Shown here: in pieces, positions 3,341 to 37,086 of the stretch
Numbering within the stretch: the stretch's first letter is position 1
How the letters are laid out: each line of letters begins with the position of its first letter
Origin: Terrimicrobiaceae bacterium
GTDB lineage: Bacteria > Verrucomicrobiota > Verrucomicrobiia > Chthoniobacterales > Terrimicrobiaceae
Length of the DNA: 64,000 nt
Direction of reading: 5' to 3'
Assembly: GCA_041749815.1 (NCBI GenBank)
Contig: JBGTAR010000117.1
Location: 5,559-69,558, forward strand
Position numbers and translations under genes: made by a program
The notes under the pieces: generated by a model
Seen by the model: the letters and a program-made list of their open reading frames with translations, nothing else
Databases searched by the model: none
Told to the model about the DNA's origin: nothing

Positions 3341-3592
3341 ATCCACACCTCACACCAAACATGAATAGCAATCAAACACTCCCCTCCCCTAAATTCGTCG
3401 GTCCCAGCTATGAATGGCCTCCCTCAGCGGCCTCGTGCTTGGCGGGCCACGCGGTTCGCTCTTCGGCGTGCACGTGGGCTGGATCGATGCCAGCAAACTC
3501 ATCAACGCGCAGCACGTCGAGGATCACCTCGATCGCACCGGCGACTATTGGAATTGGCCGAGGCAACCCGAAACCCTCGGCATGGACTCCGC

Positions 3593-3784
3593 TGTTGGAG
3601 TATCACCATGACCGACATTCATACCCAATGGACGGAGAACCAGGCGGTGCCCAACCGCAGCCAGCATGCGGTGGCCGGGCGCATTGCTGAGACGGAAGCG
3701 GAGGTGCCCTTTCCGATCCTGGGCTTCGACACCGACAATGGCGGGGAGTTCTTAAACTGGCATCTGGTGGACTACTTTCGCATC
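3593..3784 (+). mobile_element. DDE (rve/integrase-core-like) transposase fragment
   Basis: WSITMTDIHTQWTENQAVPNRSQHAVAGRIAETEAEVPFPILGFDTDNGGEFLNWHLVDYF carries the D-x-NG-x-EF core motif of rve-type transposases. Only about 65 aa remain. The fragment is fused in frame, with no stop, to the upstream part of the 3410-5197 ORF. Confidence 0.55.
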
Positions 3785-3943
3785 CGCCCCTGGTGTCTTT
3801 TTTCATTGAGTCAACACGGTTTCTTATTGATTGAATCACTTTTTTGGAATAACTCCCTTTTTCACTCAAACGATCCCATTCTTGAATTTGTTCACCTCCC
3901 GAGTCACCGATGGCGGAGAAACAATCACCACCGCATTCGAACT

Positions 3944-5202: not shown

Positions 5203-6639
5203 TTATTTTTCCATGACCAAAAGGCCTCGTCGCGCCTCGATTTCACGGCGAATCGTGGCCATGCGTTCCTGGGTAAGAGGGTAGATCCAGATCAAAAACA
5301 GCCCGACCGCCCAGAAGCCTAGCGGAACAAAAAGGTAGGACATAAACATGCGTTGGTGGATGACGGGGTCGGCGGAATTGACATTGACGACGAACCCCGT
5401 CGCTTGAAGCAACCATCCTCCGAGACCGGCTGAGACGGTGACAGCAACCTTAAAGAACCAGGAGAAAAACGCATTGATCGCGCCCTCGCGCCGCCGTCCA
5501 GTTTGTAATTCATCGAAGTCCGCGATGTCGCCTTTCATCGAAGGAATCAGAAGCCAAATGGCAGTGAATCCGGCTGACTCGAAAATGCCAGGGATGATGG
5601 ACAGATACGGATTCGCTGGGGTGATGAGAAAATACCCAAGGAGATGACCGAAGACCGAGATGAACAGAGTAATGATGACCAGCGTTCGTTTGTCTAAAAA
5701 TTTCGCAAGCCATGTCCAAACCGGGATGAGAGCGAGCCCGCAAACGGTAATGACGCTTCCTTTCCATCCGCCGATCACACCGGCCAACGCAAGGTCGCCG
5801 TTGGTAACGTAATAAATGAACACATAGGTGCCGACGCCGCCGATCACACCCAAGCCGGTCACAAGGAAAAACGTGATGCCGATCACAATCCAAAGAGGTC
5901 CATTGTGCAGCGACTCCCGGATGTTTTGCCAGAAGGATTCGCGCTCCATTTTTCCTTCCTTGGAACGCGGCGACAGCGTCCGTTCTTTCACAAACAGCGC
6001 CGGCATGATCCCAAAGATCGCGATGCCTGCGGCAAAAACCCAGCAAAGATGCCTGATGCCGTTTACCAGATCAGGTTCCCCCGTCAGAGGATTTGCAAAC
6101 ATGCTGCTGGCCAGCCATGCCATATGCCAGCCCATGATGATGCCCATCACGTTGCTGACGACAGTCATCCATGCGGAAAGGCGGGTGCGTTCGTGGTAGT
6201 TCGGAGTTAGCTCCAACTGAAGACCGTAATAGGGCATCGCCCAAAAACTATATGCCAGGTAGAAGGCCATCCCGCAGACGAGGAGATACAAAAATTTTCC
6301 GGTATCGGAAAGCGACGCCGGCATGAACCAGAAAAGCGGGAACAGCACGGCACAGCCAATCGCGCCCACCAGCATGTAAGGGCGCCGTCGGCCCCACCGG
6401 GTCGGGAAGTTGTCAGAGATATAGCCGACAATGGGATCCAAGCATCCGTCCCACGCGCGCAGAAGCATGAGAATGATGCCGATGGCCACAGGTGTCATCC
6501 CGAACCCAATATTAAAAATCGGCAGGAACAAATTCGTGAGAAGGGAGGCCCCCATAATCTCCAGCACGATGCCAAGACTGAATGCCCCCTTTTCCTTGAG
6601 AGGGATTCTTTCCGTCTCCGGAATCAGTGCTGTGGTCAT
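5203..6639 (-). CDS. Glycoside-pentoside-hexuronide (GPH/MFS) cation symporter
   Basis: Signature DGCLDPIVGYISDNFPTRWGRRRPYML and about 12 hydrophobic segments. ATGA overlap with the upstream ADP-ribosylglycohydrolase-like gene. Confidence 0.85.
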   Translation of the reverse strand: MTTALIPETERIPLKEKGAFSLGIVLEIMGASLLTNLFLPIFNIGFGMTPVAIGIILMLLRAWDGCLDPIVGYISDNFPTRWGRRRPYMLVGAIGCAVLFPLFWFMPASLSDTGKFLYLLVCGMAFYLAYSFWAMPYYGLQLELTPNYHERTRLSAWMTVVSNVMGIIMGWHMAWLASSMFANPLTGEPDLVNGIRHLCWVFAAGIAIFGIMPALFVKERTLSPRSKEGKMERESFWQNIRESLHNGPLWIVIGITFFLVTGLGVIGGVGTYVFIYYVTNGDLALAGVIGGWKGSVITVCGLALIPVWTWLAKFLDKRTLVIITLFISVFGHLLGYFLITPANPYLSIIPGIFESAGFTAIWLLIPSMKGDIADFDELQTGRRREGAINAFFSWFFKVAVTVSAGLGGWLLQATGFVVNVNSADPVIHQRMFMSYLFVPLGFWAVGLFLIWIYPLTQERMATIRREIEARRGLLVMEK

Positions 6640-8063
6640 GCTGGCAGTTCTGCGGCAGTGGGTAGTTCATCCGCCGTCCACGGGCAGAGATGAAAATTCG
6701 GATATGTCAGCAACACACTGGCCTGCTGTGCAGGGTTGGTCGAGGGAAGTTCGACCCGGACCCGATGTTTCCCAGGAGACACGCTCACCATCACGCGTGA
6801 GCCTTGAGGGCAACGATGCGGGGCGGGCACGTAGGGCAGGCCGGGGGGACAACACAGTGCCACCTCGTCATCGATCCAAATCTCGGCGCCCTCCGTGGCC
6901 AGACACATCAATTCGCGATCCACGTTGCGATCCACCTCCCACTCCCAGATCGCACCGCCCGCAGCCTTGACCTCCCGAGGCAACTCTCCATTTGCCCAGA
7001 GAACTTCTTTGACCTGGCCTAGCGGGCCAATTGAAATCGTTCCGGGCAGTCCGGTCAATTCCATCGGCGGAGGTAAAGCGTTCCATGCGTCGTGAGACCA
7101 TGGCTGGCGGTCCATTTTTCCAATGAGAGCCATCGTTCTATCCGTTAGTTCCTGGACAGTGAGCGGAGCAGAGATCCCTTGGATCCCTGGACCGATGAAA
7201 ATTCTGTCGCCGATGGGAGTGCTCCATTTTTGCGGAATTCCCTCACTCCCCAGAAACAGTCCGAGGGTCGCACCGGCGGTCGCGGCTGTGCAGTCGGTAT
7301 CGTAGCCGCCGTTGACCGCCAGAAGAATGGTCGTTTCAAAATCATCTTTCCCATAGAGCAATGCCCATACCGTCAGCGCCACATTGAGCGGAGCGTGGGT
7401 GAAGTTGTCGCTATGGTGGGCGGCGATCAGATGCTCGCGAGCTTCCCACGGTTCGACCTTGCTCTCAAAGTCCCTCTCCACCAGTCGGATTGCCCGTGCG
7501 GTCTCGCATTGCTCTGGAATGTAGCCTTGAGCCGAGAGGATCGCCTCTCGAACCACGCACCCTTCGGCCACCAAGGATTGCATCACTGCGAAAAACACCT
7601 CGCCCGCGATTCCTTCGATGCCATGGTCCAGTGAGGCGTCCATCGCGGCATAGTGCGCCGCACTCTCGGGATCCCCGACAAAAAGACAGGCCCAAATTTC
7701 TGATCGAATCGGAGACCCCATGCCTGCGTGAAACGGATTCTCAAAGCTCCCGACGCATTCTGCTGGCACCCCCCGGCGCAAATTCCATCGGCAGCGTCCA
7801 TATTCGTCCCACATGTAGTGGATGTGATCCCTCCAGGCCCGGGCGAAATCGCCTTGGGTGAGCGTTGCCCCCGCTGATTCTACCAGATGGAGCCACACCA
7901 ACTGCAGTTCCAGATCATCATTTGGGGGTGCAGTTACGGGGATCGGATCGTAAAACGAAAAATGCAGACGTTCCATGCGACCCTCCGCTGGAATACCAAG
8001 AGTTCCTCCAATCGATTTGCCAAGCCAGCATCCCAAAATTCTTTTTTTCAATGATATCTCCAT
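6636..8063 (-). CDS. ADP-ribosylglycohydrolase (ARH)-family protein with a C-terminal extension of about 140 aa
   Basis: The N-terminal GCWLGKSIGGTLGIPAEG and the C-terminal metal motif VNGGYDTDCTAATAGATLG are the two ARH-fold signatures. No signal peptide. First gene of a two-gene operon with the GPH symporter. Confidence 0.75.
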   Translation of the reverse strand: MEISLKKRILGCWLGKSIGGTLGIPAEGRMERLHFSFYDPIPVTAPPNDDLELQLVWLHLVESAGATLTQGDFARAWRDHIHYMWDEYGRCRWNLRRGVPAECVGSFENPFHAGMGSPIRSEIWACLFVGDPESAAHYAAMDASLDHGIEGIAGEVFFAVMQSLVAEGCVVREAILSAQGYIPEQCETARAIRLVERDFESKVEPWEAREHLIAAHHSDNFTHAPLNVALTVWALLYGKDDFETTILLAVNGGYDTDCTAATAGATLGLFLGSEGIPQKWSTPIGDRIFIGPGIQGISAPLTVQELTDRTMALIGKMDRQPWSHDAWNALPPPMELTGLPGTISIGPLGQVKEVLWANGELPREVKAAGGAIWEWEVDRNVDRELMCLATEGAEIWIDDEVALCCPPGLPYVPAPHRCPQGSRVMVSVSPGKHRVRVELPSTNPAQQASVLLTYPNFHLCPWTADELPTAAELPA

Positions 8064-11105: not shown

Positions 11106-14100
11106 ATGCATCTTTCACCCTCCAACCCCACCCCCCACACAATGAATCCTCCCCTCACGGCTTCAACGCTAATAAAATTAAAGAATAATTCGCTGGATTT
11201 TATTTTTAAGTCCGTACGAACACTATCTACCACCCTTTTTCTAGGTTGGTTGCTATCCGATCCCTGCCAGGCGAAAATATTGGTGAAAACCAATTTTGAC
11301 GATGGGTTCGGGACAGGTTCTCTGGCTGAGCAACCGGCAATTCTAGGCAACCCGAATGATGCCGGATTTAGCGGGGCGTTCACCTATGCGCCGTGCTCGG
11401 CCGATGTGAGCGCGGGCAAACATCTCGCGGTATCCAGCGGCGTGAATTTGACGTACAACGTTTCCGGAGGCGGCACCATTGTTGGAGGCACGAACGCGGT
11501 GAGTTTTACGACATCGTGTTTCTCCGATTCCACGACAGCGACCCGTCTGCTGCCGACCGCGATCACCGGCCAGGACGTCTACGTTTCGATTGTCCTGGAC
11601 CCCATCGCGGCGGGTCAGTCAGCTACGACGGACCTTTTGTTCACGCTCGGAAGCCCTTCGATCTACTCGCCGTTTATAGGGATTTATAATAGCAAAGCTG
11701 GTGCGGGGTTCTTCGGGGCCTACGGGGCGAGTGCCTCGTCCACCACGCCCATGACCTCCAGCAGCGGCCCGCATTTGTTGGTGGCTCGTTTCGTGTGGAA
11801 TAGCAACATCAACAAATACGATTCCGTGCAGTTCTGGTTGAACCCGACAGCGGGAGCGTCCGCCACCCCCACCTCAAGCGTCACCGATACGGCCCATGCG
11901 TTTGCCAGCTTCAATGCGATGGGATTGTATGCCACCAATATGACGACCAATAGCGAGTACGCATTTGATTCCCTCGTGATCGGCACAACCTGGAACGATG
12001 TCATCCCGGTGGCGGGGGCGTCTGAAACGGACCCAACCGGCGGAGCAGTCATCAACTGGGAGAATCCCAATTGGGGAGGGTATCCCACCGGCCCCACCCT
12101 ATGCAGCGAAGCCTTTAGCCAAGCGGGGAAAGCGACCATGACTGCCGCCCAAGGAGCAACCGTTCTGGACTTCGAGCAAACATCCGGATTTCAGGCAAGC
12201 CCATATCAACTGGGTGCAACCGGAGCTCTGAACCCGGTGCCGACCCTGTCCACCAACAAGGCATTGACGGCAGTCACAACCCCGAGTGGCACTGCCAAGA
12301 TGGAATGGCGCAGCTACAATATGACCAATGATATCCTGAGCGCGCCCGATGCGACCCAGGGGATCTATTTGGCTAAGGATCGCGCCAGCGGCAGCGCCAC
12401 GATGGTTTCTGGCTCGCAGGGGATCACGGCGAGCGTGCTCGCTGGAGTCAACGCCGGGACGTATCTTACTTTCGACAAGGACATCTCCAAGTTCAGCGTC
12501 GTAATCAATAGCAATGCTGAAGACTACCAGCCTCTTGTCGTGCTCTTCGACGCAAGTGGTGTGGCGATTCGAAAGTACTTTTTCGGTGGTGTGGGTAAGG
12601 GATTATCCACCTATTTCGGGATCATATCTCCGAGCTCCCTCATTCGCAGCGTTTGGATTGGCCAAAATGGAACCAACGCAGGATTAGTTCTCGATGATAT
12701 CGCCTTTGTTCCGGGACTAGCGCCATCACCAGTTCAGACATTCTCCTTCGCAAATGGCGCTGCAGGATGGAGCTCCACGAGCGGAACGGTTATCGGAGCC
12801 AATTCCACCTACACCTCGCTGCAGGGCCCGAGCGGCCCGAGCGACGCGAAACTCTACCGCTCCATTACCTTGAATGCTGGCACCTATGAAATCAAAGGCA
12901 CAGGGAATGGGGTATCAACCTGCGTCTGGGTCTCGCCCCTATTCGATCTTTCCTACTTCATCGGTGCGCTCAACTTGACGCAAAGCAGCACATGGAGAAC
13001 TGACCACCAGCGATTTAAGGTGTCGCAATCGGGGACCTATTTGTTGGTGATTCCGGCGGGGGCTGCTCCGGGCTATAACAACATACAGGCGGTGACTATT
13101 TCACCGGTGACGCCGACGCCCTACAGTTATGATACGGGAGCGATGGCCACTCAACGCGCGGCGCTTGGAGTTTCCCGTGGAGTGCAATGCCTTCAACAGT
13201 GGGAGCCGCTCGGTGCGCCGTTCTTTGCAGATCTGAAAAATACGTGGAAATGCAATGTGGTTCGTTATAATCTTAGGATGGATGGTACGCCAGCTACTCT
13301 GGCGGCGAGTCTGGCCAGAGCGAAAGTCGATATGGACTCGGCTCCGGCGGGACTCAAATTTGCGATTGCGCTAGCGGGGCCGCTGAATAACCTCCCGGCA
13401 AATATCGATTATTCCTCGCACGCCTATTGGAGTCGTGCTGATTTGAATGAGGCTTACTGTGAGACGTTGAAGATGGTCGTCAGCACTTTGGCCCCGACGC
13501 ATTCGGCAAGAATCTGGGGCTATGATATTTGGAATGAGCCGCATGATGTTGACCAGATGCCCAACCCGCCACGCGAGTGGTGGCCGATAGCGGTCAATGT
13601 TCTACGAACCATCCGGTCGATTGATCCATACGCGTGGGTGATCTACGAAACTGGTCCCGGCGGCCAGTTCAGCGGTTTTTACGATCTTTCTCCACTGCCG
13701 GACACTGCCAACCGTATTATCTACTCTGCCCATTTCTATGAGCCAATGCCCTTTACTCATCAAGGAGTGTATTCCTCCTTGGCCGACTTGAATTGGCCAA
13801 ACGCCAACGATCCACTAAGCAACTACTCTTCAACGACAACGAATCTCGCTGCTTGGCTGGCTCCCGTGGACGATTTTCTAGCCAGCTGGCCCGTGCCGAT
13901 CTACGTGGGAGAATTCAGCGTCGTCCGCTGGGCCCCGAAGGCCGACGCCATCGCCTGGATGCGGGATGCTGTCGCGCTGTTCGAAGCGCGCGGATGGTCC
14001 TGGACCTATTTTGCCTGGCAGTCGTGGAATGGTTGGCGGTTGGACATGGATAATGTCTACGGCAAAGAACATTTTGGCCCGTTTAATGCGCCTATGACCA

Positions 14101-14183
14101 CTGTCCCCTATCTGCCCCCTGGAGACACCGACTCCCGCGGCAAGGTAATTTTCGACGCACTAAACAACCCGCCCACACCGTAA
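11106..14183 (+). CDS. Secreted multidomain GH5 glycoside hydrolase (LamG-like N domain + unknown domain X + CBM-like + GH5)
   Basis: Signal-like N-terminus. The C-terminal GH5 catalytic motifs are IWNEPHD (acid/base) and PIYVGEFSVVRWAP (nucleophile), plus YSAHFYEP. The start may be MNPP at 11142. Confidence 0.8.
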   Translation: MHLSPSNPTPHTMNPPLTASTLIKLKNNSLDFIFKSVRTLSTTLFLGWLLSDPCQAKILVKTNFDDGFGTGSLAEQPAILGNPNDAGFSGAFTYAPCSADVSAGKHLAVSSGVNLTYNVSGGGTIVGGTNAVSFTTSCFSDSTTATRLLPTAITGQDVYVSIVLDPIAAGQSATTDLLFTLGSPSIYSPFIGIYNSKAGAGFFGAYGASASSTTPMTSSSGPHLLVARFVWNSNINKYDSVQFWLNPTAGASATPTSSVTDTAHAFASFNAMGLYATNMTTNSEYAFDSLVIGTTWNDVIPVAGASETDPTGGAVINWENPNWGGYPTGPTLCSEAFSQAGKATMTAAQGATVLDFEQTSGFQASPYQLGATGALNPVPTLSTNKALTAVTTPSGTAKMEWRSYNMTNDILSAPDATQGIYLAKDRASGSATMVSGSQGITASVLAGVNAGTYLTFDKDISKFSVVINSNAEDYQPLVVLFDASGVAIRKYFFGGVGKGLSTYFGIISPSSLIRSVWIGQNGTNAGLVLDDIAFVPGLAPSPVQTFSFANGAAGWSSTSGTVIGANSTYTSLQGPSGPSDAKLYRSITLNAGTYEIKGTGNGVSTCVWVSPLFDLSYFIGALNLTQSSTWRTDHQRFKVSQSGTYLLVIPAGAAPGYNNIQAVTISPVTPTPYSYDTGAMATQRAALGVSRGVQCLQQWEPLGAPFFADLKNTWKCNVVRYNLRMDGTPATLAASLARAKVDMDSAPAGLKFAIALAGPLNNLPANIDYSSHAYWSRADLNEAYCETLKMVVSTLAPTHSARIWGYDIWNEPHDVDQMPNPPREWWPIAVNVLRTIRSIDPYAWVIYETGPGGQFSGFYDLSPLPDTANRIIYSAHFYEPMPFTHQGVYSSLADLNWPNANDPLSNYSSTTTNLAAWLAPVDDFLASWPVPIYVGEFSVVRWAPKADAIAWMRDAVALFEARGWSWTYFAWQSWNGWRLDMDNVYGKEHFGPFNAPMTTVPYLPPGDTDSRGKVIFDALNNPPTP

Positions 14184-15811: not shown

Positions 15812-16507
15812 TTATTGTGGGCCGTTCCCGTTCCAAAACGGATTTTCATTGCTCGGGCCGGGACTCATGGCGGGTGAGTCCTGTTTTTCGGAAGTTATAT
15901 GGCCATCGACCCAGAGGACATTTGCAGTCTTTCCGGGATGGCGGAACGAGACGACATGATCCCACCGCCCGAAGCTCGGTGGCCGAACGTAGGCCCGCCA
16001 TGCCAGGAATGATCCGTCGGGTTGACTCAGATTTTCACTGTCACAAAGAAGAACCGTCTGGCTTGGCTTGGCGACTTTGACATTCTTTGGCATCGCGCCG
16101 CCGTTGAGTTGCGGCCAGCTCAGGTAGTTGTAGTTGTATCCGTAACCAAACTGGTTCGGATTGGCCGGACAGACGAATACCGGCAGATCCTTGGCCGATG
16201 TGAATGGGGTGGTTTCCGTGCGTTCCAGATATGGGGCCAGGATGCCAGTGATTTGGTTGAGTTCGGTGGCTTCTGCATCCCCAAAAGCCCCCGGAACGAT
16301 GGCACCATCGTTGTCGGACGACCAGGCCTGTGCTGCGACATAAATTTGGCGCAAATTCGACATGCATTTCGCTGAGTGCGCAGCGGCCCGTCCGCGCCCG
16401 ACCATGGGAAATGTCAATGCGGCGAGAATCCCGATGATGGCGACGACCACCAGCAGTTCGATAAGCGTGAAAGCCAGGCGATTTCGGGGTTGTCGGGTTG
16501 GGATCAT
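15812..16507 (-). CDS. Prepilin-type N-terminal cleavage/methylation protein (H-X9-DG-like pseudopilin family)
   Basis: [20 protein letters not shown] class III signal and a C-terminal [14 protein letters not shown] motif. ATGA overlap with the upstream GH29 gene. Confidence 0.85.
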
Positions 16508-17541
16508 GGATGCGTTTTGCGAAATGATTGCAGGTGATCGATATTGTGACGCAGACGTGCAAGAGCCTCTTGCATCTGCCGGGGGATCAGTCCGTGTTTG
16601 TCAGGACCCACATCAAGAAGCAGGTTTGCTCCGCGGCTTCGCGTGACAAGATACATCCCGAGCAATTCATCGTCACTGCGAGGGCGGTCACCCTTCACAT
16701 GAAACCATTCCTTCCCGAGCGTGTCGCAGACTTCGTAGGGAAGATAGTAATCCTTTACGCCATCGATTTCACGCCATTTGTTGCAACCGGTGAGGCTGCC
16801 GGGAAGGCCCCGCTCGATGGTGATCACATCGGTCGGCCAGGTGTTGTTGGCGATGAATTTCGACCCATCTCCGTAGCCGTGATTCATTGTGATCACGGTA
16901 TCCGGCTGCCAGGCGGCAATTTGATGGTACAAGTCAGAGCGGTAGTCGCAGGGGAGGACGATGGGGATGTCGATCCAAACTTGGGCGATCTTTCCATATC
17001 CGGTCAGCAACTCCTCCAACTGGGCGGTTTGGAAATCCTGATACACGCGGGTCGTAAAGGCCTCGCGCATCCCGTCACACTGATCCATGCGTCCACCCAT
17101 GAGGTTGATATGATCCGTGGCGGTGAACGATCCGAATTTGTGTCGGTTGTCCCAGGAGCAATAATACAGCCCCGGAAGAACTCCTCGCTTTTCGCAGGCG
17201 GTGACAAACGCTTCCACGACATCCGTTTTATTTCCGCTGGTGCCGACATTGTAATCGGTCAGTCGCGACGGCCAAAGGCAATGCCCGCCAGAATGCTTTG
17301 CGGTGAGAACGGCATATTTCATCCCGGCGTCGCGCGCGATGCTGACCCACTGATCAACATCCAATTTGTCTGGAGCGTAGAGCGCGGAGGGCTTCGTTCC
17401 GCTGGCCTGCTCGGTTCCTTCGAACGTGCTCATCCCAAAATGGATGAACATTCCATAGCCGAGAGTTTCCCAGGACTGAAGTTTTTTAAGCGACAAGCGC
17501 TGATTTCCTGTGATGGCGGTTTTTTTCATGCGGGTGATCAA
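16504..17541 (-). CDS. GH29 alpha-L-fucosidase, short form, no signal peptide
   Basis: [41 protein letters not shown] and QVWIDIP. Collinear paralog of 2336-3340. Confidence 0.8.
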
Positions 17542-17550
17542 TGAAGGCGC

Positions 17551-19620
17551 TCAGGGGGCGGGCACGAAGCTGATATCGTCCAGCACGAGGGCCGGGTTGC
17601 CGCCATTCTGACCGATCCAGACGCTGCGTATGAGGGCATTGGGGGAAGCAATTCCGAAATAGGTGGCCTGTCCCCAGCCGACTCCTCCGAAATAATACCG
17701 ACGAATCGGCAGTCCGTTGCCATCGAAGAGGATGACCAGCGGGGAGTAGTTGTCGGCATTGCTATTGATCACGACACTGAATTTGGACAGATGCCTTTGG
17801 AACGTGAGATAGACCCCACCATTAACCCCGGTGGCTGCGGTGGCGAGGAGGCCTTGCGTGCCAGAGACCATCGTTGGCGTGCCGCTGCTGCGATCCCGAA
17901 TCACATAGACCGCTTTTGTCGCATCGGGGGCACCCAACGTGTTGGTTGCCATGTCATAGCTCCGCCACTCGGCATTGACGGTACCCACTGTGGTCGAGAG
18001 CACCTTCAAACCCTTATCGGTCGAGAGCACGGGGGACGGATTTAGAACTCCTGAAGCATTCAATTGATAGGGCACCGCGCCGAACCCGGAAGAAGCCTCG
18101 AAGTCCAAGATGGTGGCCCCCTGTGCGGGCGTCATGGCGACCGAAGCCACCGGTTCAAAGGGTTCAGAACTCAGGTCGCTTCCCGAGAAGTTGAAATGGG
18201 GATTGTTCCAAGTGACGGTGGCACCTCCGGCTGGATCGATTTGGGTGCCTCCCACAACCTGCAGAACGCCTGAAAGATCCGTCACCTTCAGTCGCATGAA
18301 GCGTTTGTCGGAATTGCTGAGCGGCTGGATATCCCTTGCCACGATGGTTTCCAATCCGACCGTCGGGAAATTGTCGGTGCGGCTGATCTGATTGGCCGGT
18401 AGAAACGGATCAAATTCCGTCCAAGCGGCGCCCAAATCACTGGTCACCTCGACCACCGTGCGGACATCCGTGGCCAATTTGCTATGGACGAAAGAGAGGC
18501 TGAGATAGTCCACGTCTCCAACCGTGCTGACTCCCACAAGAGGCATGCGGGTCGGCGGGACGAGCAGCGGATTTCCACTGGCATCGTTTAAAGGAATCCC
18601 GATGGCATATTTCATGAGGTTCGGAATCCCGTCCCCGTTGGGAGCGTCCAGATTTCCGCTCAGACCGGGAATATAGACTGTCGTTCCGAAGGTAGAATAC
18701 TGCCATCCCGCAAGGGAGGTCGGCACAAATGGCATTGACGATACCACAGCACTCGGTGTTCCTGTATAAACAGGGTTTGAAGGCAGAATCCGATAATAGC
18801 GATATTCTCCGGCAGGCAAGTTAGCATCGGTGAAGGTCAGGCGAGGTGCTTCTACGGTGGCGAGCTGATAAAATGGACCGGCGGCCGATGAGGCCACCTC
18901 AACCGCATACATCGTCGCATTGGGCTCGGCATTCCAAGACAAATTAATTTCCGCGATCTTCGCTCCGGGAGTGGCAAGCACATTTGTCACAGAGCCCACC
19001 GGGGCAAAGGGATTATATCCCTGTGCCGAAGCGACTTGGGAAAACGCCGAATTGTTGCCCGGGTTGAACGCCATCACACGGTAGTAGTAGGTTGTATTGA
19101 GTTGCGGACAATTGTCCGTGTAGGAGAGGACGGGAGCAGTGACCGTGGCGATTTTTGTAAACCCTCTCCCCGCTTCCGTGGATCTTTCGATTTGGTAGGT
19201 GGTCGCGTTGCTGGCGCTGCTCCAGTTCAGAACAACTTGTCCCGAGCTTGTCCCGGTTGCCGCTGTGAGGCTTGAGATCGCGCCGACCACGGGCTCGCTT
19301 CCGGTATTGAGCGTCACACTGTCAAACTGGGCGTAGCCGAGGGGCGCGCTGCCCACCTGCCCCGAGGCGAGGATGAATCCCACATAAGCAGTTCCGGGAA
19401 TGCCTGCCTGAGTAACGGGTGAGCCAATCGCCGCCCAAGTCGATCCATTCGTAGAGGTAAAAGTCGTGGTGGTGTTGCCGCTTCGCACGATTCGCAACCA
19501 CTGTTTGACAGACATGTCAAAGGATCCGACCCAGGAAAATCCTGACTGCAGTGTGGGGGAGGAGCGGACATATCGTCCAAAGCCAAAGTCGTTCCCGATA
19601 GTCAGCATGTCCATCGCCGC
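17551..19620 (-). CDS. C-terminal part of a frameshifted giant surface protein (second half of a LamG/DUF1349-like domain, 2x FN3, DGDGIPNLMKYA-type module, domain X)
   Basis: Homology-bearing sequence starts at AAMDMLTIGNDFGFGRY... The 84 codons upstream in this frame look like out-of-frame noise. FN3-like repeats: VVLNWSSASNATTYQIERS and INLSWNAEPNATMYAVEV. The C-terminal 230 aa repeat a domain of the 11106 protein. Confidence 0.7.
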   Translation of the reverse strand, partial: AAMDMLTIGNDFGFGRYVRSSPTLQSGFSWVGSFDMSVKQWLRIVRSGNTTTTFTSTNGSTWAAIGSPVTQAGIPGTAYVGFILASGQVGSAPLGYAQFDSVTLNTGSEPVVGAISSLTAATGTSSGQVVLNWSSASNATTYQIERSTEAGRGFTKIATVTAPVLSYTDNCPQLNTTYYYRVMAFNPGNNSAFSQVASAQGYNPFAPVGSVTNVLATPGAKIAEINLSWNAEPNATMYAVEVASSAAGPFYQLATVEAPRLTFTDANLPAGEYRYYRILPSNPVYTGTPSAVVSSMPFVPTSLAGWQYSTFGTTVYIPGLSGNLDAPNGDGIPNLMKYAIGIPLNDASGNPLLVPPTRMPLVGVSTVGDVDYLSLSFVHSKLATDVRTVVEVTSDLGAAWTEFDPFLPANQISRTDNFPTVGLETIVARDIQPLSNSDKRFMRLKVTDLSGVLQVVGGTQIDPAGGATVTWNNPHFNFSGSDLSSEPFEPVASVAMTPAQGATILDFEASSGFGAVPYQLNASGVLNPSPVLSTDKGLKVLSTTVGTVNAEWRSYDMATNTLGAPDATKAVYVIRDRSSGTPTMVSGTQGLLATAATGVNGGVYLTFQRHLSKFSVVINSNADNYSPLVILFDGNGLPIRRYYFGGVGWGQATYFGIASPNALIRSVWIGQNGGNPALVLDDISFVPAP

Positions 19621-22370
19621 GCGTCCAAGCTGCCGCGCAAAGCAATTCCCGCGCAGGCGGAGTTGGCGCCGTAGATGGCATTGAGCGGGTAGTTTGTTAC
19701 CCGTGCGGAGAAAGTGAAATCTCCGGTGACCGGGCGGTAGAGAAAACGTCCGGAATCGCTGGTCTGCAGCAGCACAATCGGGCCGCTCCTCACCGCGAGG
19801 CCAAATGTGCCGTCGACTTGCTCCGCATAGCCTGCATCGCTGATCGAGCCAAACGTAGCGGAGGCCCAAGGCGAGGGCAGGGTTTGCGCGGTCGGATCAT
19901 TGACAAAGACATAAGGGTTCAACTCCCAGCCGAGGCCGAGCCCGTTGGTGGGGTTGCCAAGGTTGACCTGAAAAATCTTTGTCATCTGCTTGCCACTGGG
20001 ATTGGGCAGGGAGAGGTTGACCGGTTTGTATCCGCTTTCCCCATTGGCCCATGAGACCGTGCCAGTGGTTGTCGGGTAGTCCAGACCGGCAGTGCCCCAG
20101 ATTCCGGCGGTCGAATACGAGAGTGAAACATTCCCGGCGTCGCCATTAAAACGGTTGATCCCAAGGGAAAAGACCCCGGCATCTTTATTGACGACCCGAT
20201 AGAATCCCTGTCCATAAGCGATGCCAGGCAGGCTCTGGTCGGCACCCGCATCGGAGTAGCCGGAAGACCCGTTCGCGTTGGTCGCGCGCACCCTGTAGTT
20301 CACAATCTGGCCACTGGGTGCGGACGAATCGGTGTATGATGTGGCATTCGTACCCACGGTACCAATCTGGCTCCATAGACCGGTCGCCGCATTGTAACGC
20401 TCAATCAGAAAGCCGGTTTCATTGTCGGAATTGTCTTCCCACGTCAGCAAAAACGTCGAGCCTCCCGAGCGGCGGACGCTCAACTGGGTGGGTGCTCCCG
20501 GCGATGGAGCGGCAGCCAGGTGGGTGGTGGTGACAAACTCTCCGATGCTCTGGTTGGCGTAAGTGCCGGATGGCGTGCTCTCCATGCGAACAGCTTTCAC
20601 GAGGTAGGTGTAGGAAACGCCAGCCGTCAGGGTCGAATCGTTGTCGGTAAAGGTGAGCGTGCTGGTATTCAGGCAGGAGCCGGTGGGGTTCGCACCATTC
20701 GCCGCTGTGCCGGTGATCCGGATGAATGGACCCGCCGAGTTCATAGAGCGATAGACATGGTAGCCGCTGAGTCCGAAGTCAGTCGAGGCCTGCCAACGCA
20801 CAACAACCCCGGCACCCGAGGAGGTGGCGGTCACCCGGCTGGGCGGTGCGATGCTGTGCAAGCGCAACGTGGGATCTCCCATCAGTGCGATGTGCGTGCC
20901 GCGGTAGGGACCGCTTTGGAAGAAATCTCCCGTTCCCGCTCCGTTGTTGATAGCCTTGCGGGTGGAGTAACCAACCGTATCGCCCAGAGCCATGTGGTAC
21001 AACGGAATCTGCCCTCTCCCCGACCAGGCGCAGCTAAGACCCAAGGAACCGTTCGTTCCGGCCAAGGGGGCGCGGAGAAAGTTTTGCTCACTGTCCCAGT
21101 CTCCAAAATAGCTTCCGAAAAGCTGGGTGAAAACCGCTTTCGAGTCCTGCCTCCCAAAGTTCCACTCCGATTCGCCTACGCCATTTGCGCCATAAAAGAG
21201 CCCTCCCCCGCAGCCATAGGCGAACAGCATCGGGGTGGTGGGCAGCACCGTGAACCAATCTGCTGCGTCCATCTGCCCTGGATCACGTCCGAAGAAACCA
21301 AATCCAGAAATCCATGCGGTTTGCGCATAGTAATTGAAGTTGTCGTCCACGATCCCCCGCCGCGCCACATTGTTGAAGGGCGCTTGCACCCGCCGAAACC
21401 GGTTGTCACGTACCAAATACTGACGCAGCAGTTCGACCTCGGTCATGCCTCTCGGAACCGCGCTCATTTTCGTAAGATCCACGCGTCCGCATTGGATTTC
21501 GACATCGGATGGCAGGGTGTTCGTGTCGAATTTTCCGTCCCCAATCTTATTCACGTTGCGTTGGTCGGCGAAATTGCTCGTTCCTGTGCTGACATTAGCA
21601 TCCGTCCAGTTGCCATCCACATCGGCATAGTAGCTGTCTGCTGGCCAGGCACCACCATGATCGCCGTGACCGTCGATGGCACTGTTGCCAGAGTAAGGGA
21701 CAGGGATGCGACCGAAGAGGAGCAGTGCCCATGTGTTGCCGGGGTCGGTGTTGTAGTCGGCCTGCACAATGGCGCGGATATTCTGCTGCTCCGCGATGCG
21801 GGCGGCCCAGACCGAACTGTCATTGTTGCTCGGATCGACGGTCTCGCGCGGCACGTCATGGCGCAGGACGACCCACCCATCCGCCACCAGATTTTTCTCG
21901 AGCTGTTGGATTTCTGCCGAGAGCGGCGCAACCATGGTCTGGTCCACGAGCAGGATGACCTTGCCGCGGCTCTCGACCAACGGAACATTGTGCCCCGCCA
22001 CGATACCGCCGATGGAGCTAAAGCTTTGGGGGGACATGGAGTATTCGTAAGCCACACCCGGCTGCGCGGTCATGTCGGCGTAGGTGTAGATCCCACTCGG
22101 AAGATTGACGGGCGCCTCCCAGACCGTCGCACCTTTCACGCGGCGATAAATCTGCGTCGGCAGGGTCGGCTGCTTGTTAGTCCAATTGAGCGTGATGCAA
22201 GGAGCCGTGGCACTCGTCGTCGCGGTCGTCTCCATTACGTTGCTGCGCGAATCCGCCAGCAGTGGCCGGAGCGGAGCAAGGCACAGAAGCATGCCCAATG
22301 CCGCAGGCGTCCATTTGCGGACGAAAAGTGGTGGTAGTGCAAAGGCAGTCGCGGGCGAGGGACTTTTCAT
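19602..22370 (-). CDS. N-terminal part of the giant surface protein (signal peptide, gingipain-like-topology region, 2x FN3, Calx-beta-like, first half of a LamG/DUF1349-like domain)
   Basis: N-terminal hydrophobic signal. FN3-like VVVRWQASTDFGLSGYHVYRS and LLTWEDNSDNETGFLIERY. Calx-beta-like NVSLSYSTAGIWGTAGLDYPTTTGTVSWANGESGYKPVNL. It ends 6 codons after GDFTFSARV...AGIALRGSLDA, in the middle of a domain. Confidence 0.7.
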   Translation of the reverse strand: MKSPSPATAFALPPLFVRKWTPAALGMLLCLAPLRPLLADSRSNVMETTATTSATAPCITLNWTNKQPTLPTQIYRRVKGATVWEAPVNLPSGIYTYADMTAQPGVAYEYSMSPQSFSSIGGIVAGHNVPLVESRGKVILLVDQTMVAPLSAEIQQLEKNLVADGWVVLRHDVPRETVDPSNNDSSVWAARIAEQQNIRAIVQADYNTDPGNTWALLLFGRIPVPYSGNSAIDGHGDHGGAWPADSYYADVDGNWTDANVSTGTSNFADQRNVNKIGDGKFDTNTLPSDVEIQCGRVDLTKMSAVPRGMTEVELLRQYLVRDNRFRRVQAPFNNVARRGIVDDNFNYYAQTAWISGFGFFGRDPGQMDAADWFTVLPTTPMLFAYGCGGGLFYGANGVGESEWNFGRQDSKAVFTQLFGSYFGDWDSEQNFLRAPLAGTNGSLGLSCAWSGRGQIPLYHMALGDTVGYSTRKAINNGAGTGDFFQSGPYRGTHIALMGDPTLRLHSIAPPSRVTATSSGAGVVVRWQASTDFGLSGYHVYRSMNSAGPFIRITGTAANGANPTGSCLNTSTLTFTDNDSTLTAGVSYTYLVKAVRMESTPSGTYANQSIGEFVTTTHLAAAPSPGAPTQLSVRRSGGSTFLLTWEDNSDNETGFLIERYNAATGLWSQIGTVGTNATSYTDSSAPSGQIVNYRVRATNANGSSGYSDAGADQSLPGIAYGQGFYRVVNKDAGVFSLGINRFNGDAGNVSLSYSTAGIWGTAGLDYPTTTGTVSWANGESGYKPVNLSLPNPSGKQMTKIFQVNLGNPTNGLGLGWELNPYVFVNDPTAQTLPSPWASATFGSISDAGYAEQVDGTFGLAVRSGPIVLLQTSDSGRFLYRPVTGDFTFSARVTNYPLNAIYGANSACAGIALRGSLDARRWTC

Positions 22371-22806: not shown

Positions 22807-24372
22807 TTAATCCTTCTTGTCGCCCGTCCGATTTTTTTCCAGCGCCTTGCGGATCACCTTGGCGCGGTCGGTGATGTAATTGACCGGCGTTGGGGCCGGT
22901 TCGGCACCAGCCCACGGGATTTCGTCGTGTTCGAGGCTCCATCCATTGAACTCGCGGAAGGCGTGATACGTCCACGACCAGCCCCTCTCTTCAAATATCT
23001 CAATCGTGTCGTTGAGCCATTTTACAGCATCTTCCTTCGGGGCCCAGCGGACGACGCTGAACTCTCCCACATAGATGGGAACGCGCCATTTTTCGGCGAA
23101 CTCCACTGTCGGCGCAATCGCCTTCAGGTGTTGCTCCTGGTCGAAATAGACTCCCTTGATTTCCGACGGATAATGCACGACGCCCTTTTGGCCCACATCC
23201 GTCTGATCCAGCCCGCCCACGAATTCGAGTCCCTGGCTGGTGAACTCGGCCGGGTAGTAGGTATGCACGGTATAGATAACGCGCGTGTCCGGGAGAGGCA
23301 CCAATCCATCGTAGCCGCGGTCGAGGGCTCCGGGTCCGGGCGAGAACACGATCCACACATCGGGATCGATATTACGAATGGCTTTCAGCAACTTGACGGC
23401 CAGCGGATACCATTGCTTCGGTGCCCAGGGCAACTGCGAGCGGTCGAGCGGTTCGTTGTAGAGGTCGTATCCCCAAATCGTCTTTCCATAAGGCTTGAGT
23501 CGCTTGGCAATATCCGTCCACACCCGCAGAAAACTGCTTTCGAGTTCGGGGTGACGCCATAGCTCCGGTTGATCCAACTGCGACTTTTCCATGATTTCCT
23601 CAATCGGTGGGGCATGGAGATCGATGATGAGTTTAATGCCATATTTCTCGGCATTTTTCACCGCCTGCTCGATGTCGTCGAGGATGAGCGGCCAGGCTTC
23701 CCAGAGGGGTTTCTGATGACGCTTGGCCAGATCGACTGGCGAGAACTGCAGCCGCGCGGCATTGGCTCCCCATTCCGCCATGTCGCGGAAGGTCCCCTCA
23801 CCCCAATCCCCGCCAAGCATGAATCCCCGCACAATCGGCGGCGTGGGACGGGATTTTCCCAACTCCTCGGGAGTCGGTGTCCTTGGCTGATCCAGATTCG
23901 CAAGCGGGGACGACTCGATCTTCATCCACCGCAACTCTGCCCATTGGCCGGGGTTTGGAATCCATGCGCAGAGGAACCTCGAGTCATCGGAGGCGGCGGG
24001 AATCGTAAAATCCACATAGTCCGTGAATGGCTCTTTCGCATTCAAAACAAGATGCACCTCCGGATTTTCGTCGAGGTTTCGGAAAATTAAGAGCTGCACG
24101 TCTCCCTGGGCGCGCCCATAGAGAACATAACGTCCGGGCTTGAGACGAATAGGCTTATAGATTTTGGCATCCCACTCGTTGGCCGTGAGGATGATCCCCT
24201 CTTTTCCCTGCGACCACTCAATCGAGGACGTTGAAGACCAGTTGTCGATTTCCTTTGGCTTGGAAAAATCGAATGTCTCGGAGGTATTGATGCGCTGAGT
24301 CTTTGCCGGCGCGGCCATGAGCGTGCAGAGGGCGGGGAGGAGGAGAGCAAGGAGGATGTGCGTGGCTTTCAT
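22807..24372 (-). CDS. Secreted GH5 glycoside hydrolase with an N-terminal CBM-like domain
   Basis: Signal peptide MKATHILLALLLPALCTLMA. LYNEPLD (acid/base), PIYVGEFSVVRWAPK (nucleophile) and VHTYYPAEF. Paralog of the C-terminal 480 aa of the 11106 protein. Confidence 0.85.
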   Translation of the reverse strand: MKATHILLALLLPALCTLMAAPAKTQRINTSETFDFSKPKEIDNWSSTSSIEWSQGKEGIILTANEWDAKIYKPIRLKPGRYVLYGRAQGDVQLLIFRNLDENPEVHLVLNAKEPFTDYVDFTIPAASDDSRFLCAWIPNPGQWAELRWMKIESSPLANLDQPRTPTPEELGKSRPTPPIVRGFMLGGDWGEGTFRDMAEWGANAARLQFSPVDLAKRHQKPLWEAWPLILDDIEQAVKNAEKYGIKLIIDLHAPPIEEIMEKSQLDQPELWRHPELESSFLRVWTDIAKRLKPYGKTIWGYDLYNEPLDRSQLPWAPKQWYPLAVKLLKAIRNIDPDVWIVFSPGPGALDRGYDGLVPLPDTRVIYTVHTYYPAEFTSQGLEFVGGLDQTDVGQKGVVHYPSEIKGVYFDQEQHLKAIAPTVEFAEKWRVPIYVGEFSVVRWAPKEDAVKWLNDTIEIFEERGWSWTYHAFREFNGWSLEHDEIPWAGAEPAPTPVNYITDRAKVIRKALEKNRTGDKKD

Positions 24373-24585: not shown

Positions 24586-25446
24586 TTAAGCGCGGGTGTT
24601 CGCTTTGCGACGACGGAAGGCCAGCACGCCAGCGCCGATTGCGAGAAGTGCGAAGGCCGAGGGTTCCGGGACGACATCGGCAAAAGACGTGCCGACTGCG
24701 AAAGAGTCAAAATTGGCTTCGAAAGTTCCCAGATTCACGCCATCCAGTGTGAAGCGATCAAAGGCGGATGGACCATCGGCAATTCCTAATTGCGACGCGG
24801 TAGCCATCCCCGGCGTAGCTGACGATGGGTTCAGATACAAATTGACCCCGTCATATTTGCCGGTCACGTCATTCCAGATGTATTCGCCTACGAGCATCAC
24901 TAGTTGGCCATCTGCAGCAGTAGTGGATGAAATTGCATTTGTGCCAATAACCCCGCCTAATCCTGCTGCATAGTTGCCTGCACTGATTCCAAGATAAGGA
25001 GTGTTTGAGCCGAAAATCCCGCCGCTATTCAGACCGAACGTCAATGTCGGGTTTGCCGAAGCTGTAACCATAGAGAATACCACGCTGAAAAAGATGTCCT
25101 GGCCAGTGATAACCGAGTCAAAGCTTCTGGACAAGAGATAGTTGAACGCATCACCATTGGTGGTTGTCAGGTTCACCGAATTCGCTCCACCGTTTTTGAC
25201 AATGGAACCCGAACTGTAATTTAGCCCGCCGGAAACCACGTTTAAGGTTGTATCCGCGAGAGGCACAGAGCTGTAAGTCCCTGAAAGCCCCAGATCGCCG
25301 CTGCCACTCTGTCCGGCAAGTGCATTTCCCGCCGTATACCCCGTGTCAAAATTCGATTGGACAAGGAGAGTTGCATGGGCGGAGGGGAGGGAGGCCGCTG
25401 CGAGAATTCCGACAGCGATCATCAATGGAGTGGGACGGATTTTCAT
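24586..25446 (-). CDS. PEP-CTERM-anchored secreted protein with a LamG-like domain
   Basis: Signal peptide. The C-terminal VPEPSAFALLAIGAGVLAFRRRKA is the PEP motif, a TM helix and a basic tail. The body is homologous to the N-terminal module of the 11106 protein. Confidence 0.85.
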   Translation of the reverse strand: MKIRPTPLMIAVGILAAASLPSAHATLLVQSNFDTGYTAGNALAGQSGSGDLGLSGTYSSVPLADTTLNVVSGGLNYSSGSIVKNGGANSVNLTTTNGDAFNYLLSRSFDSVITGQDIFFSVVFSMVTASANPTLTFGLNSGGIFGSNTPYLGISAGNYAAGLGGVIGTNAISSTTAADGQLVMLVGEYIWNDVTGKYDGVNLYLNPSSATPGMATASQLGIADGPSAFDRFTLDGVNLGTFEANFDSFAVGTSFADVVPEPSAFALLAIGAGVLAFRRRKANTRA

Positions 25447-37044: not shown

Positions 37045-37086
37045 TTAATGGAAAGTAGGGGAATGCCACGCAAACGGAGCGGTGGC

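What the first reader, a model, noticed from the sequence alone, without database searches (positions are those of the whole stretch)
11106..14183. The 1,025-aa GH5 protein is a three-way mosaic of modules encoded separately in the neighbouring convergent locus
Module 1 (about 11271-12010) starts KILVKTNFDDGF..., contains ITGQDVYVS and KYDSVQFWLNP, and ends FDSLVIGTTWNDVIPV. It is collinear with the body of the PEP-CTERM protein 24586-25446 (LLVQSNFDTGY..., ITGQDIFFS, KYDGVNLYLNP, FDSFAVGTSFADVVPEPS).

Module 2 (about 12030-12715) repeats the C-terminal 230 aa of the giant protein (17554-18238).

Module 3 (about 12716-14183, CBM-like + GH5) is a paralog of the stand-alone GH5 22807-24372.

In the fusion protein, module 1 ends at ...DVIPV. 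That is exactly where the paralog begins its PEP-CTERM sorting signal (...DVVPEP). This suggests a gene-fusion event that replaced an exosortase anchor with catalytic modules.
Basis: seen in the sequence. Interest (0 to 1): 0.7.

Follow-up and report, generated by a model that had tools for sequence, protein, structure and literature searches.

The report
Old composite GH5 enzyme with paralogous neighbours
A 1,025-residue secreted sugar-cleaving enzyme really is assembled from modules that also occur as separate genes next door, but it is an old architecture conserved in several related bacteria, not a recent local fusion, and one neighbour copied its module from the enzyme.

Summary
The ORF 11106-14183(+) reads signal peptide, M1, M2, X (CBM-like), GH5. 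Each part has exactly one paralog in the window:
- M1 matches the PEP-CTERM protein 24586-25446 (34% identity, E 7e-25).
- M2 matches the C-end of the giant protein (56%, E 4e-87).
- X-GH5 matches the GH5 22807-24372 (30%, E 5e-56).

M1 ends exactly where the paralog's PEP-CTERM signal begins.

The same M1-M2-X-GH5 architecture occurs in four other lineages (39-57% identity), so the fusion is old. M2-X-GH5 without M1 is more widespread (for example Chthoniobacter flavus) and looks older. The fused M1s and the PEP-CTERM M1s form two old groups (97% bootstrap). In one relative the PEP-CTERM gene lies 180 bp upstream of the fusion gene. The stand-alone GH5 lies outside the M2-fused clade.

The giant's M2 nests inside the fusion clade, and the giant's ortholog elsewhere lacks it. 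It was therefore probably copied from the fusion gene.

M1 (lectin-like fold) and M2 match no Pfam family. M2 has only 25 clusters among 1.84 billion representatives. Both are probably glycan-binding modules, but this is untested.

The parts
11106..14183 (+). Composite gene: signal peptide, M1, M2, X, GH5 (1,025 aa; identical to an NCBI-annotated protein, P0001)
   Evidence: ORF and translation. Exact match P0001. Module map by BLASTP.
11106..11273 (+). N-terminal leader with a probable signal peptide (...KSVRTLSTTLFLGWLLSDPCQA|KILV)
   Evidence: Read from the sequence. The orthologs and the PEP paralog have a signal-peptide-like leader ending at the same aligned position. No signal-peptide predictor was run.
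11274..12014 (+). M1: about 245-aa beta-sandwich module, no Pfam family, lectin-like (ConA-like) predicted fold
   Evidence: 34% identity and E 7e-25 to 24586-25446. No Pfam hit. AF2 model pLDDT 58, pTM 0.65. Foldseek hits to calreticulin, ERGIC-53 and CBM40 lectin domains, TM 0.35-0.46.
12015..12719 (+). M2: about 235-aa module of a very rare, uncatalogued family
   Evidence: 56-58% identity to the C-end of the giant. 25 clusters among 1.84 billion representatives. No Pfam or PDB sequence match. Low-confidence model (pLDDT 47) with weak CBM6/32-like matches.
12720..13109 (+). X: about 130-aa CBM-like module preceding the catalytic domain
   Evidence: Profile of ten X modules hits aa 31-154 of the stand-alone GH5 at E 2e-16. 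No Pfam hit.
13110..14180 (+). GH5 catalytic domain, with NEP (E811) and GEF (E936) motifs
   Evidence: PF00150, 63 bits against a cut-off of 23.5. N810-E811-P812 and G935-E936-F937 are invariant among three orthologs. Nearest solved relatives are 8B3Y, 8AG9 and 8ANX.
24586..25446 (-). SP-M1-PEP-CTERM paralog (286 aa)
   Evidence: PF07589 24.6 bits and TIGR02595 24.4 bits at aa 259-281. Ortholog in L005 8957-9820.
22807..24372 (-). SP-X-GH5 paralog (521 aa), 213 nt downstream of the M1-PEP gene on the same strand
   Evidence: PF00150 95 bits. X domain by profile. Sister to all M2-fused GH5s in the trees.
17551..22370 (-). Giant surface-protein gene (Fn3, Calx-beta, C25-like), read as two ORFs because of a one-base frameshift near 19620
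   Evidence: The L001 ortholog is a single 1,364-aa ORF matching both window ORFs.
17554..18258 (-). M2 copy appended to the C-end of the giant protein, after ...KRFMRLKVT

Best explanation
The gene encodes an old, conserved composite (Rosetta-stone type) secreted GH5 endo-glycanase of a Verrucomicrobiota-like bacterium. It belongs to a conserved glycan-utilisation gene cluster.

The architecture was most likely built by stepwise N-terminal accretion: first SP-X-GH5, the form kept by the neighbouring gene 22807-24372; then SP-M2-X-GH5, the form found in Chthoniobacter flavus and several metagenomic lineages; then SP-M1-M2-X-GH5.

M1 and M2 are two unrelated, uncatalogued beta-sandwich modules. 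Their free-standing relatives are small secreted proteins, and many carry a PEP-CTERM sorting signal. In each fusion the junction lies where that signal would start. Fusion therefore removed the anchor of the upstream partner and the signal peptide of the downstream partner.

The M1-PEP gene is an old companion paralog of the fused M1, not its recent donor. The M2 at the end of the giant protein is a later copy taken from a fusion-type gene in this lineage.

Function is inferred, not shown. M1, M2 and X probably bind the glycan substrate. When fused they target the GH5. When PEP-CTERM-anchored, or appended to the giant protein, they hold the same glycan at the cell surface.
For: Shown by tool results:
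- The three paralog pairs.
- Five lineages carry M1-M2-X-GH5: the window, P0002/L001, L003, P0006/L005 and P0007/L006.
- The exhaustive profile search of M2 found 25 clusters. They are M1-M2-X-GH5, SP-M2-X-GH5, SP-M2-PEP-CTERM, SP-M2 alone, SP-M2-SGNH, and the window's giant-M2.
- M2-X-GH5 occurs in Chthoniobacter flavus Ellin428 and in four further metagenome loci.
- M2 genes also lie next to separate GH5 genes in L010 and L011.
- M2 tree: the giant's M2 lies inside the fusion clade (98%) and is sister to the window's fusion M2 (88%). Two shared indels agree.
- The giant's ortholog in L001 ends at KVTH, without M2.
- M1 tree: (W_PEP, L005_PEP) separate from the five fused M1s at 97%.
- In L005 the M1-PEP gene is 180 bp upstream of the fusion gene.
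- GH5 trees: the stand-alone X-GH5 is sister to all M2-fused GH5s (97%), and the M1-bearing forms nest within them.
- Junction alignments.
- M1 has a lectin-like predicted fold.
- The gene set around the fusion gene is conserved in the window, L001 and L005.
Against: - The trees are neighbour-joining on 240-470 columns. Several inner nodes are weak (30-78%).
- Strict quartet site counts for the giant M2 plus the window's fusion M2 against P0002 plus L003 are only 8:6:6.
- The M1 tree is unrooted. I could not run an exhaustive M1 search, so M1-PEP could instead derive from a fused gene.
- In the 19-sequence GH5 tree the M1-bearing proteins are not monophyletic. That implies either loss of M1 in the Chthoniobacter-like clade or a tree error.
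- Both structure models have low confidence (pLDDT 58 and 47), so the glycan-binding role rests on fold resemblance and domain company only.
- No exosortase gene lies in the 64-kb window.
- The giant gene carrying the M2 copy is frameshifted in this assembly.
Confidence: 0.65

Rival explanations
1. Literal reading of the first-stage note: a recent, local fusion in this genome joined copies of the three neighbouring genes (PEP-CTERM protein, tail of the giant, stand-alone GH5) into one gene.
For: All three paralogs lie within 12 kb on the opposite strand. The M1 boundary coincides with the PEP-CTERM start.
Against: - The paralog identities are only 34%, 56% and 30%.
- The same four-module architecture is present in four other lineages at 39-57% identity.
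- Each paralog falls outside the fused clade, or, for M2, inside it as a derived copy.
- The module order M1-M2-X-GH5 does not match the gene order PEP, GH5, giant.
Confidence: 0.03
2. Fission or partial duplication. The fused gene is ancestral. The separate M1-PEP gene arose by duplication of the 5' part of the fusion gene followed by gain of a PEP-CTERM tail. Likewise the free M2 proteins are fragments of M2-X-GH5 genes.
For: - The giant's M2 demonstrably came from a fusion-type gene.
- In L005 the M1-PEP gene lies in tandem directly upstream of the fusion gene, as expected for a tandem partial duplication.
- In L002 and L003 an in-frame TAG splits the fusion ortholog at the M1/M2 junction. 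This shows that splits at this boundary do occur.
- The M1 tree is unrooted.
Against: - A PEP-CTERM signal would have to be gained de novo or by a second recombination, repeatedly for M1 and M2.
- PEP-CTERM M2 proteins form their own clade (81%) outside the GH5-fused M2s.
- M1-bearing GH5s nest within M2-only GH5s. M1 therefore looks added to an existing enzyme and must have existed elsewhere before.
Confidence: 0.17
3. M1 and M2 are docking modules rather than glycan binders. The fused M1 pairs with the PEP-CTERM-anchored M1, and the fused M2 pairs with the M2 on the giant surface protein. This would tether the GH5 to the cell surface in a cellulosome-like assembly.
For: Every accessory module of the enzyme has a surface-anchored paralog in the same gene cluster. 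ConA-like lectin folds commonly form homodimers (general knowledge). M1 is predicted to have this fold.
Against: - The giant's M2 is unique to this genome. L001 shows no M1-PEP gene within the 20 kb examined. The pairing partners are therefore not conserved with the enzyme.
- M2 is also fused to an SGNH esterase and lies beside separate GH5 genes. That is typical behaviour for a substrate-binding module.
- No interaction evidence of any kind exists.
Confidence: 0.1

Closest known systems
Multi-modular GH5 endo-glycanases with appended carbohydrate-binding modules (CAZy family GH5; nearest solved relatives 8AG9, 8B3Y and 8ANX; 8AG9 is attributed to Thermogutta terrifontis in PMC11071339)
   Same: The GH5 catalytic domain scores above the Pfam threshold and has conserved NEP and GEF glutamates. 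It is a secreted enzyme with several non-catalytic beta-sandwich modules N-terminal to the catalytic domain, and it sits in a cluster of other glycoside hydrolases and a sugar-responsive regulator.
   Different: None of the three accessory modules matches any Pfam family, CBM or otherwise. The substrate is unknown. Herlemann et al. 2013 (PMC3663571) reported that the two C. flavus GH5 proteins could not be assigned to any GH5 subfamily. I did not check which of them corresponds to the M2-X-GH5 gene found here.
PEP-CTERM/exosortase-sorted surface proteins (TIGR02595, PF07589)
   Same: The M1 paralog 24586-25446, its ortholog in L005 and about six free-standing M2 proteins have signal peptide, one beta-sandwich domain, VPEP, a hydrophobic helix and a basic tail.
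   Different: The fusion protein itself has no PEP-CTERM signal. At the equivalent positions it reads VIPV-AGASE (after M1) and VPGLAPSP (after M2) and continues into the next module. No exosortase gene lies in the window.
Rosetta-stone (composite) proteins, that is, gene fusion of functionally linked neighbours
   Same: The components are separate, often adjacent, genes in some genomes and one polypeptide in others. Examples are M1-PEP next to a GH5 gene in the window and L005, and M2 next to GH5 genes in L010 and L011.
   Different: Here the unfused paralogs coexist with the fused gene in the same cluster. One module (M2) was also re-exported to a third protein.
Surface glycan-binding proteins (SGBPs) of Bacteroidota polysaccharide utilisation loci
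   Same: This is an analogy by function only. Both are non-catalytic, surface-anchored beta-sandwich proteins encoded beside the enzymes. A Bacteroides thetaiotaomicron SGBP-B (7KWC) is among the weak fold matches of M2.
   Different: There is no SusC/SusD pair and no lipoprotein anchoring. The M2 model is of low confidence, so the structural resemblance is not established.

Membership tests
Glycoside hydrolase family 5 (PF00150) | Sequence match to the GH5 (beta/alpha)8 catalytic domain above the curated threshold | tested here: met
   Fusion: 63 bits against a cut-off of 23.5, aa 707-972. Stand-alone gene: 95 bits. PDB GH5 endoglucanases match at E 1e-33 and 4e-46.
Glycoside hydrolase family 5 (PF00150) | Two catalytic glutamates: the acid/base in the NEP motif and the nucleophile in a GE motif near the end of strand 7 | tested here: met
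   YDIWNEPHD (E811) and IYVGEFSVV (E936). Both motifs are invariant in the three-ortholog alignment and present in 22807-24372. Their assignment as catalytic residues rests on general knowledge of GH5, not on a structural superposition.
Glycoside hydrolase family 5 (PF00150) | Assignment to a CAZy GH5 subfamily and a demonstrated substrate | not testable with these tools
   No CAZy or dbCAN subfamily models were available.
PEP-CTERM / exosortase substrates (PF07589, TIGR02595) | C-terminal PEP motif, hydrophobic helix and basic cluster, scoring above threshold | tested here: met
   Met for the paralog 24586-25446: PF07589 24.6 bits against 20.7, and TIGR02595 24.4 against 16. Not met for the fusion protein, which has no hit.
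PEP-CTERM / exosortase substrates (PF07589, TIGR02595) | An exosortase (EpsH/Xrt) encoded in the genome | tested here: inconclusive
   None of about 45 ORFs in the 64-kb window matched an exosortase family in Pfam. The rest of the genome was not available.
Concanavalin A-like lectin/glucanase fold (for M1) | Jelly-roll beta-sandwich superposable on lectin or LamG domains | tested here: inconclusive
   The AF2 model has pLDDT 58 and pTM 0.65, and its first 88 residues are unreliable. Foldseek probability is 1.0 but TM only 0.35-0.46 to calreticulin, ERGIC-53 and CBM40. There is no sequence match to Laminin_G_3 or any Pfam family.
Known carbohydrate-binding module families (for M1, M2, X) | Sequence membership in a catalogued CBM family | tested here: not met
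   No Pfam hit for M1, M2 or X, even at E up to 10 for M1 and M2. No PDB sequence hit.
Known carbohydrate-binding module families (for M1, M2, X) | Demonstrated glycan binding | not testable with these tools
   This needs binding assays on expressed modules.
Composite (Rosetta-stone) gene | The components occur as separate genes in the same or other genomes, with boundaries matching the ends of the components | tested here: met

The most novel reading that the evidence does not exclude
In this Verrucomicrobiota lineage, PEP-CTERM surface proteins serve as a reservoir of modules for secreted enzymes, and each fusion breaks at the VPEP boundary. In addition, the fused modules may still recognise their anchored paralogs. 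The M1-PEP protein and the M2-tailed giant protein would then dock the GH5 at the cell surface, giving a previously undescribed cohesin/dockerin-like assembly built from paralogous lectin-like domains.
Probability: 0.1. Interest if true: 0.75.

Novelty: new variant of a known kind. Interest (0 to 1): 0.38.

Why it matters
Domain shuffling in carbohydrate-active enzymes is ordinary, so the mosaic itself is not surprising. Three things are useful.

1. It defines two uncatalogued modules. M1 has a lectin-like predicted fold. M2 is extremely rare: 25 clusters among 1.84 billion representatives. M2 is repeatedly fused to, or encoded next to, one GH5 clade, and M1 is fused to it or encoded as a PEP-CTERM gene just upstream of a GH5 gene. 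Both are concrete candidates for new carbohydrate-binding module families.

2. It gives a clean natural example in which the same module exists in an exosortase-anchored form and an enzyme-fused form with an identical boundary. This says where PEP-CTERM cargo domains end and how they can be recruited.

3. It marks a conserved Verrucomicrobiota glycan-utilisation cluster whose substrate is unknown. The cluster comprises GH5, GH29, a GH63-like enzyme, a GDSL esterase, a LamG/GHL10 giant, a pseudopilin-like protein and a GntR/LacI regulator.

Tried and rejected
- Word-indexed homolog searches with M2 alone found nothing, not even the query itself. With M1 alone the search found only P0003. The exhaustive profile search was needed for M2.
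- The first genome-contig scan, with patterns from the M1 end, found nothing. The source genome is therefore apparently not among the species representatives.
- A metagenome scan for M1-PEP relatives found none. The breadth of the M1 family therefore remains unknown.
- hhalign of M1 against M2 showed no relationship (probability 0.1%). I dropped the idea that they are diverged duplicates.
- I considered whether the giant's linker (DLSGVLQVVGGTQ) retains the M1 tail (NDVIPVAGASE) as proof of direction. Free-standing M2 proteins have similar N-terminal segments after their signal peptides, so this argument is inconclusive and I did not use it.
- Strict quartet site counts do not by themselves resolve the giant M2 as sister of the window's fusion M2 (8:6:6). 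That placement rests on NJ bootstrap and two shared indels.
- Promoter and terminator scans were at chance level. A terminator-like hairpin at 24503-24489 between the M1-PEP and GH5 genes is noted but not significant.
- Literature searches found no description of these modules.
- The M2 structure model was too poor (pLDDT 47) for its fold matches to carry weight.
Full report
**The observation**

The ORF 11106-14183(+) encodes 1,025 aa and is identical to a protein annotated at NCBI (P0001). BLASTP and TBLASTN against the window gave three strong, non-overlapping matches.

| Fusion residues | Paralog | Identity | E-value |
|---|---|---|---|
| aa 54-301 | aa 23-260 of the 286-aa protein 24586-25446(-) | 34% | 7e-25 |
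| aa 281-536 | aa 518-770 of the 772-aa ORF 17551-19869(-) | 56% | 4e-87 |
| aa 544-984 | aa 32-485 of the 521-aa protein 22807-24372(-) | 30% | 5e-56 |

Profile HMMs of each module against all six frames found no further copies.

Pfam recognises only the following:
- GH5 (PF00150) in the fusion and in 22807-24372.
- PEP-CTERM (PF07589, TIGR02595) at aa 259-281 of 24586-25446.

I divide the fusion into:
- a leader with a probable signal peptide (aa 1-56, ...CQA|KILV);
- M1 (aa 57-303);
- M2 (aa 304-538);
- X, a CBM-like module (aa 539-668);
- GH5 (aa 669-1025).

X is homologous to aa 31-154 of the stand-alone GH5 by profile (E 2e-16).

M1 ends ...FDSLVIGTTWNDVIPV. This aligns with ...FDSFAVGTSFADVVPEP, where the paralog's sorting signal starts.

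Two details need correction. First, the 'giant' is two ORFs in this assembly because of a one-base frameshift near 19620. The ortholog in L001 is one 1,364-aa ORF that matches both. Second, the gene order on the minus strand is PEP, GH5, giant. Only M1 and X-GH5 are collinear with the fusion.

**The fusion is old and conserved**

The same M1-M2-X-GH5 architecture occurs in four other lineages:
- P0002 (L001): 992 aa, 56% identity over 97% of the query.
- L003/L002: 57% identity. An in-frame TAG replaces the W codon of TTWNDV, so gene callers split it into P0003 and P0005.
- P0006 (L005): 1,013 aa, 42% identity.
- P0007 (L006): 1,016 aa, 39% identity.

The surrounding genes are also shared by the window, L001 and L005:
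- a GntR/LacI-type regulator;
- a GH63-like enzyme (window and L005 only; not found in the 20 kb of L001);
- a GDSL esterase;
- a pseudopilin-like N_methyl protein and a protein of about 231 aa;
- a protein of about 340 aa;
- a roughly 1,300-aa LamG/GHL10 protein;
- the giant protein (seen in the window and L001).

The 'neighbouring convergent locus' is thus part of one conserved glycan-utilisation cluster that includes the fusion gene.

**M2**

A profile of M2 searched exhaustively against 1.84 billion representatives found only 25 proteins. Their architectures are:
- M1-M2-X-GH5: four clusters (P0002, P0005, P0006, P0007); the window's own fusion protein, the fifth lineage, is not listed as a separate cluster.
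- SP-M2-X-GH5: P0008, P0009, P0010, P0013 and P0020. The last also carries two F5/8 type C domains.
- SP-M2-PEP-CTERM: P0011, P0015-P0018 and P0023. Pfam PEP-CTERM reaches threshold in two and is near threshold in two. The VPEP, helix and basic-tail pattern is visible in all.
- SP-M2 alone: seven.
- SP-M2-SGNH esterase: P0014.
- A tandem form: P0026.
- The window's giant-M2: P0004.

Genome and metagenome scans added M2-X-GH5 genes in Chthoniobacter flavus Ellin428 (L004) and in L007, L008, L009 and L011. They also showed M2 genes lying next to separate GH5 genes in L010 and L011. M2 is therefore tightly coupled to this GH5 clade, either fused or adjacent. It has no Pfam or PDB sequence match.

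In an NJ tree of 23 M2 domains, the giant's M2 lies inside the clade of M1-M2-X-GH5 proteins (98% bootstrap). It is sister to the window's own fusion M2 (88%). The two share two indels, although strict quartet site counts are only 8:6:6.

The giant's ortholog in L001 stops at ...KRFMRFKVTH. In the window, M2 follows the equivalent ...KRFMRLKVT. The simplest reading is that M2 was copied from the fusion gene onto the 3' end of the giant gene in this lineage.

**M1**

The 287-aa gene at L005 8957-9820 is an SP-M1-PEP-CTERM protein. It is 39-41% identical to the window's M1-PEP protein. It lies 180 bp upstream of the L005 fusion gene on the same strand.

The NJ tree separates the two PEP-type M1s from the five fused M1s at 97%. 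Both types coexist in the window and in L005, so the duplication predates the split of those lineages.

In the window the M1-PEP gene lies 213 nt upstream of the X-GH5 gene, co-directional. This mirrors the M1...X-GH5 order of the fusion.

I could not root this tree.

M1 has no Pfam match. Its AF2 model (pLDDT 58, pTM 0.65) resembles ConA-like lectin domains such as calreticulin, ERGIC-53 and CBM40. M1 and M2 are not detectably related to each other.

**GH5**

In trees of 12 and 19 catalytic domains:
- The window's stand-alone X-GH5 is the sister of all M2-fused GH5s (97-99%).
- The M1-bearing proteins nest within the M2-X-GH5 radiation.
- The X-less GH5 of L001 groups with the GH5s that sit next to separate M2 genes (100%).

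This fits stepwise accretion from X-GH5 to M2-X-GH5 to M1-M2-X-GH5. The M1-bearing proteins are not monophyletic in the larger tree (nodes at 53-78%), so one gain followed by a loss cannot be told from two gains.

The catalytic NEP and GEF motifs are intact. The nearest solved structures are GH5 endoglucanases 8B3Y, 8AG9 and 8ANX. PMC11071339 attributes 8AG9 to Thermogutta terrifontis. Herlemann et al. 2013 (PMC3663571) noted that the two C. flavus GH5 proteins fit no GH5 subfamily. I did not check which of them is the M2-X-GH5 gene found here.

**Mechanism**

Shown: the composite architecture, its conservation, the module boundaries, the direction of the M2 copy, and the antiquity of the M1 and GH5 paralogies.

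Inferred: each fusion deleted a PEP-CTERM tail and the next gene's signal peptide. After M1 the linker to the conserved DPxGG start of M2 is only five residues. After M2 the fusions read VP(A/G)xAP where the anchored forms read VPEP.

Also inferred: M1, M2 and X are glycan-binding modules that target the GH5 when fused, and that present the same glycan at the cell surface when anchored or appended to the giant protein.

**Verdict**

The finding is genuine and neat, but it is ordinary in kind: a modular CAZyme in a Rosetta-stone relationship with its neighbours. Its interest lies in two uncatalogued modules, one of them extremely rare, and in the shared boundary between the anchored and the fused forms.

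Noticed in passing
window 19600-19640 (minus strand), within the giant gene 17551-22370: A one-base frameshift splits the giant gene into ORFs 19602-22370 and 17551-19869. The frames meet at GAC GCG|GCG GCG ATG around 19620. The L001 ortholog is one 1,364-aa ORF. The 687-aa C-terminal product (P0004) is on record from both NCBI and Logan. No slippery heptamer is visible, so this is a pseudogene or a sequencing error rather than programmed frameshifting.
   Followed up: partly
L003 1900-1902 and L002 5760-5762: The fusion ortholog in two JGI metagenome samples carries an in-frame TAG in place of the TGG (W) of TTWNDV, exactly at the M1/M2 junction. A GTG lies 16 nt downstream, and gene callers start a 724-aa M2-X-GH5 ORF there without a signal peptide. 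This could be a natural split, a nonsense allele or read-through. It is unresolved.
   Followed up: partly
window 8278-30978; L001 1-20873; L005 1-14300: A gene set is conserved but rearranged across three lineages. It comprises a GntR/LacI regulator, a GH63-like enzyme (window and L005 only), the fusion GH5, a GDSL esterase, an N_methyl pseudopilin-like protein, a protein of about 231 aa, a protein of about 340 aa and a roughly 1,300-aa LamG/GHL10/malectin protein. The giant is seen in the window and L001. The substrate is unknown.
   Followed up: partly
L010 88-3567; L011 5066-7053 (minus strand): Free-standing M2 genes lie directly next to separate GH5 genes. In L011 the GH5 and M2 ORFs overlap by 4 nt. 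In L010 the order is M2, GH5, M2-SGNH. This is an unfused counterpart of M2-X-GH5.
   Followed up: partly
window 37183-37968 (minus strand): A second PEP-CTERM protein (261 aa, PF07589 26.3 bits). It matches neither the M1 nor the M2 profile. No exosortase gene was found anywhere in the window.
   Followed up: partly
window 36000-46000: G+C drops to 0.46-0.50 against 0.52-0.59 elsewhere in the window. The stretch holds the second PEP-CTERM gene, a LacI-type regulator, a DegT-type aminotransferase, another N_methyl protein, a GH20 enzyme and a Kelch-repeat protein. It may be an acquired island.
   Followed up: no
window 2336-5197 and 16504-17541: Three GH29 alpha-L-fucosidase genes flank the cluster, with an MFS_2 sugar transporter and an ADP-ribosylglycohydrolase at 5203-8063. 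This hints that the target glycan is fucosylated.
   Followed up: no
window 55593-59668: Two long overlapping ORFs combine ABC-transporter parts in an unusual way. ORF 57011-59668 has a solute-binding domain followed by a permease domain in one 885-aa frame. ORF 55593-57296 has a permease domain only in its last third. This may be a fusion, wrong start codons or another frameshift.
   Followed up: no
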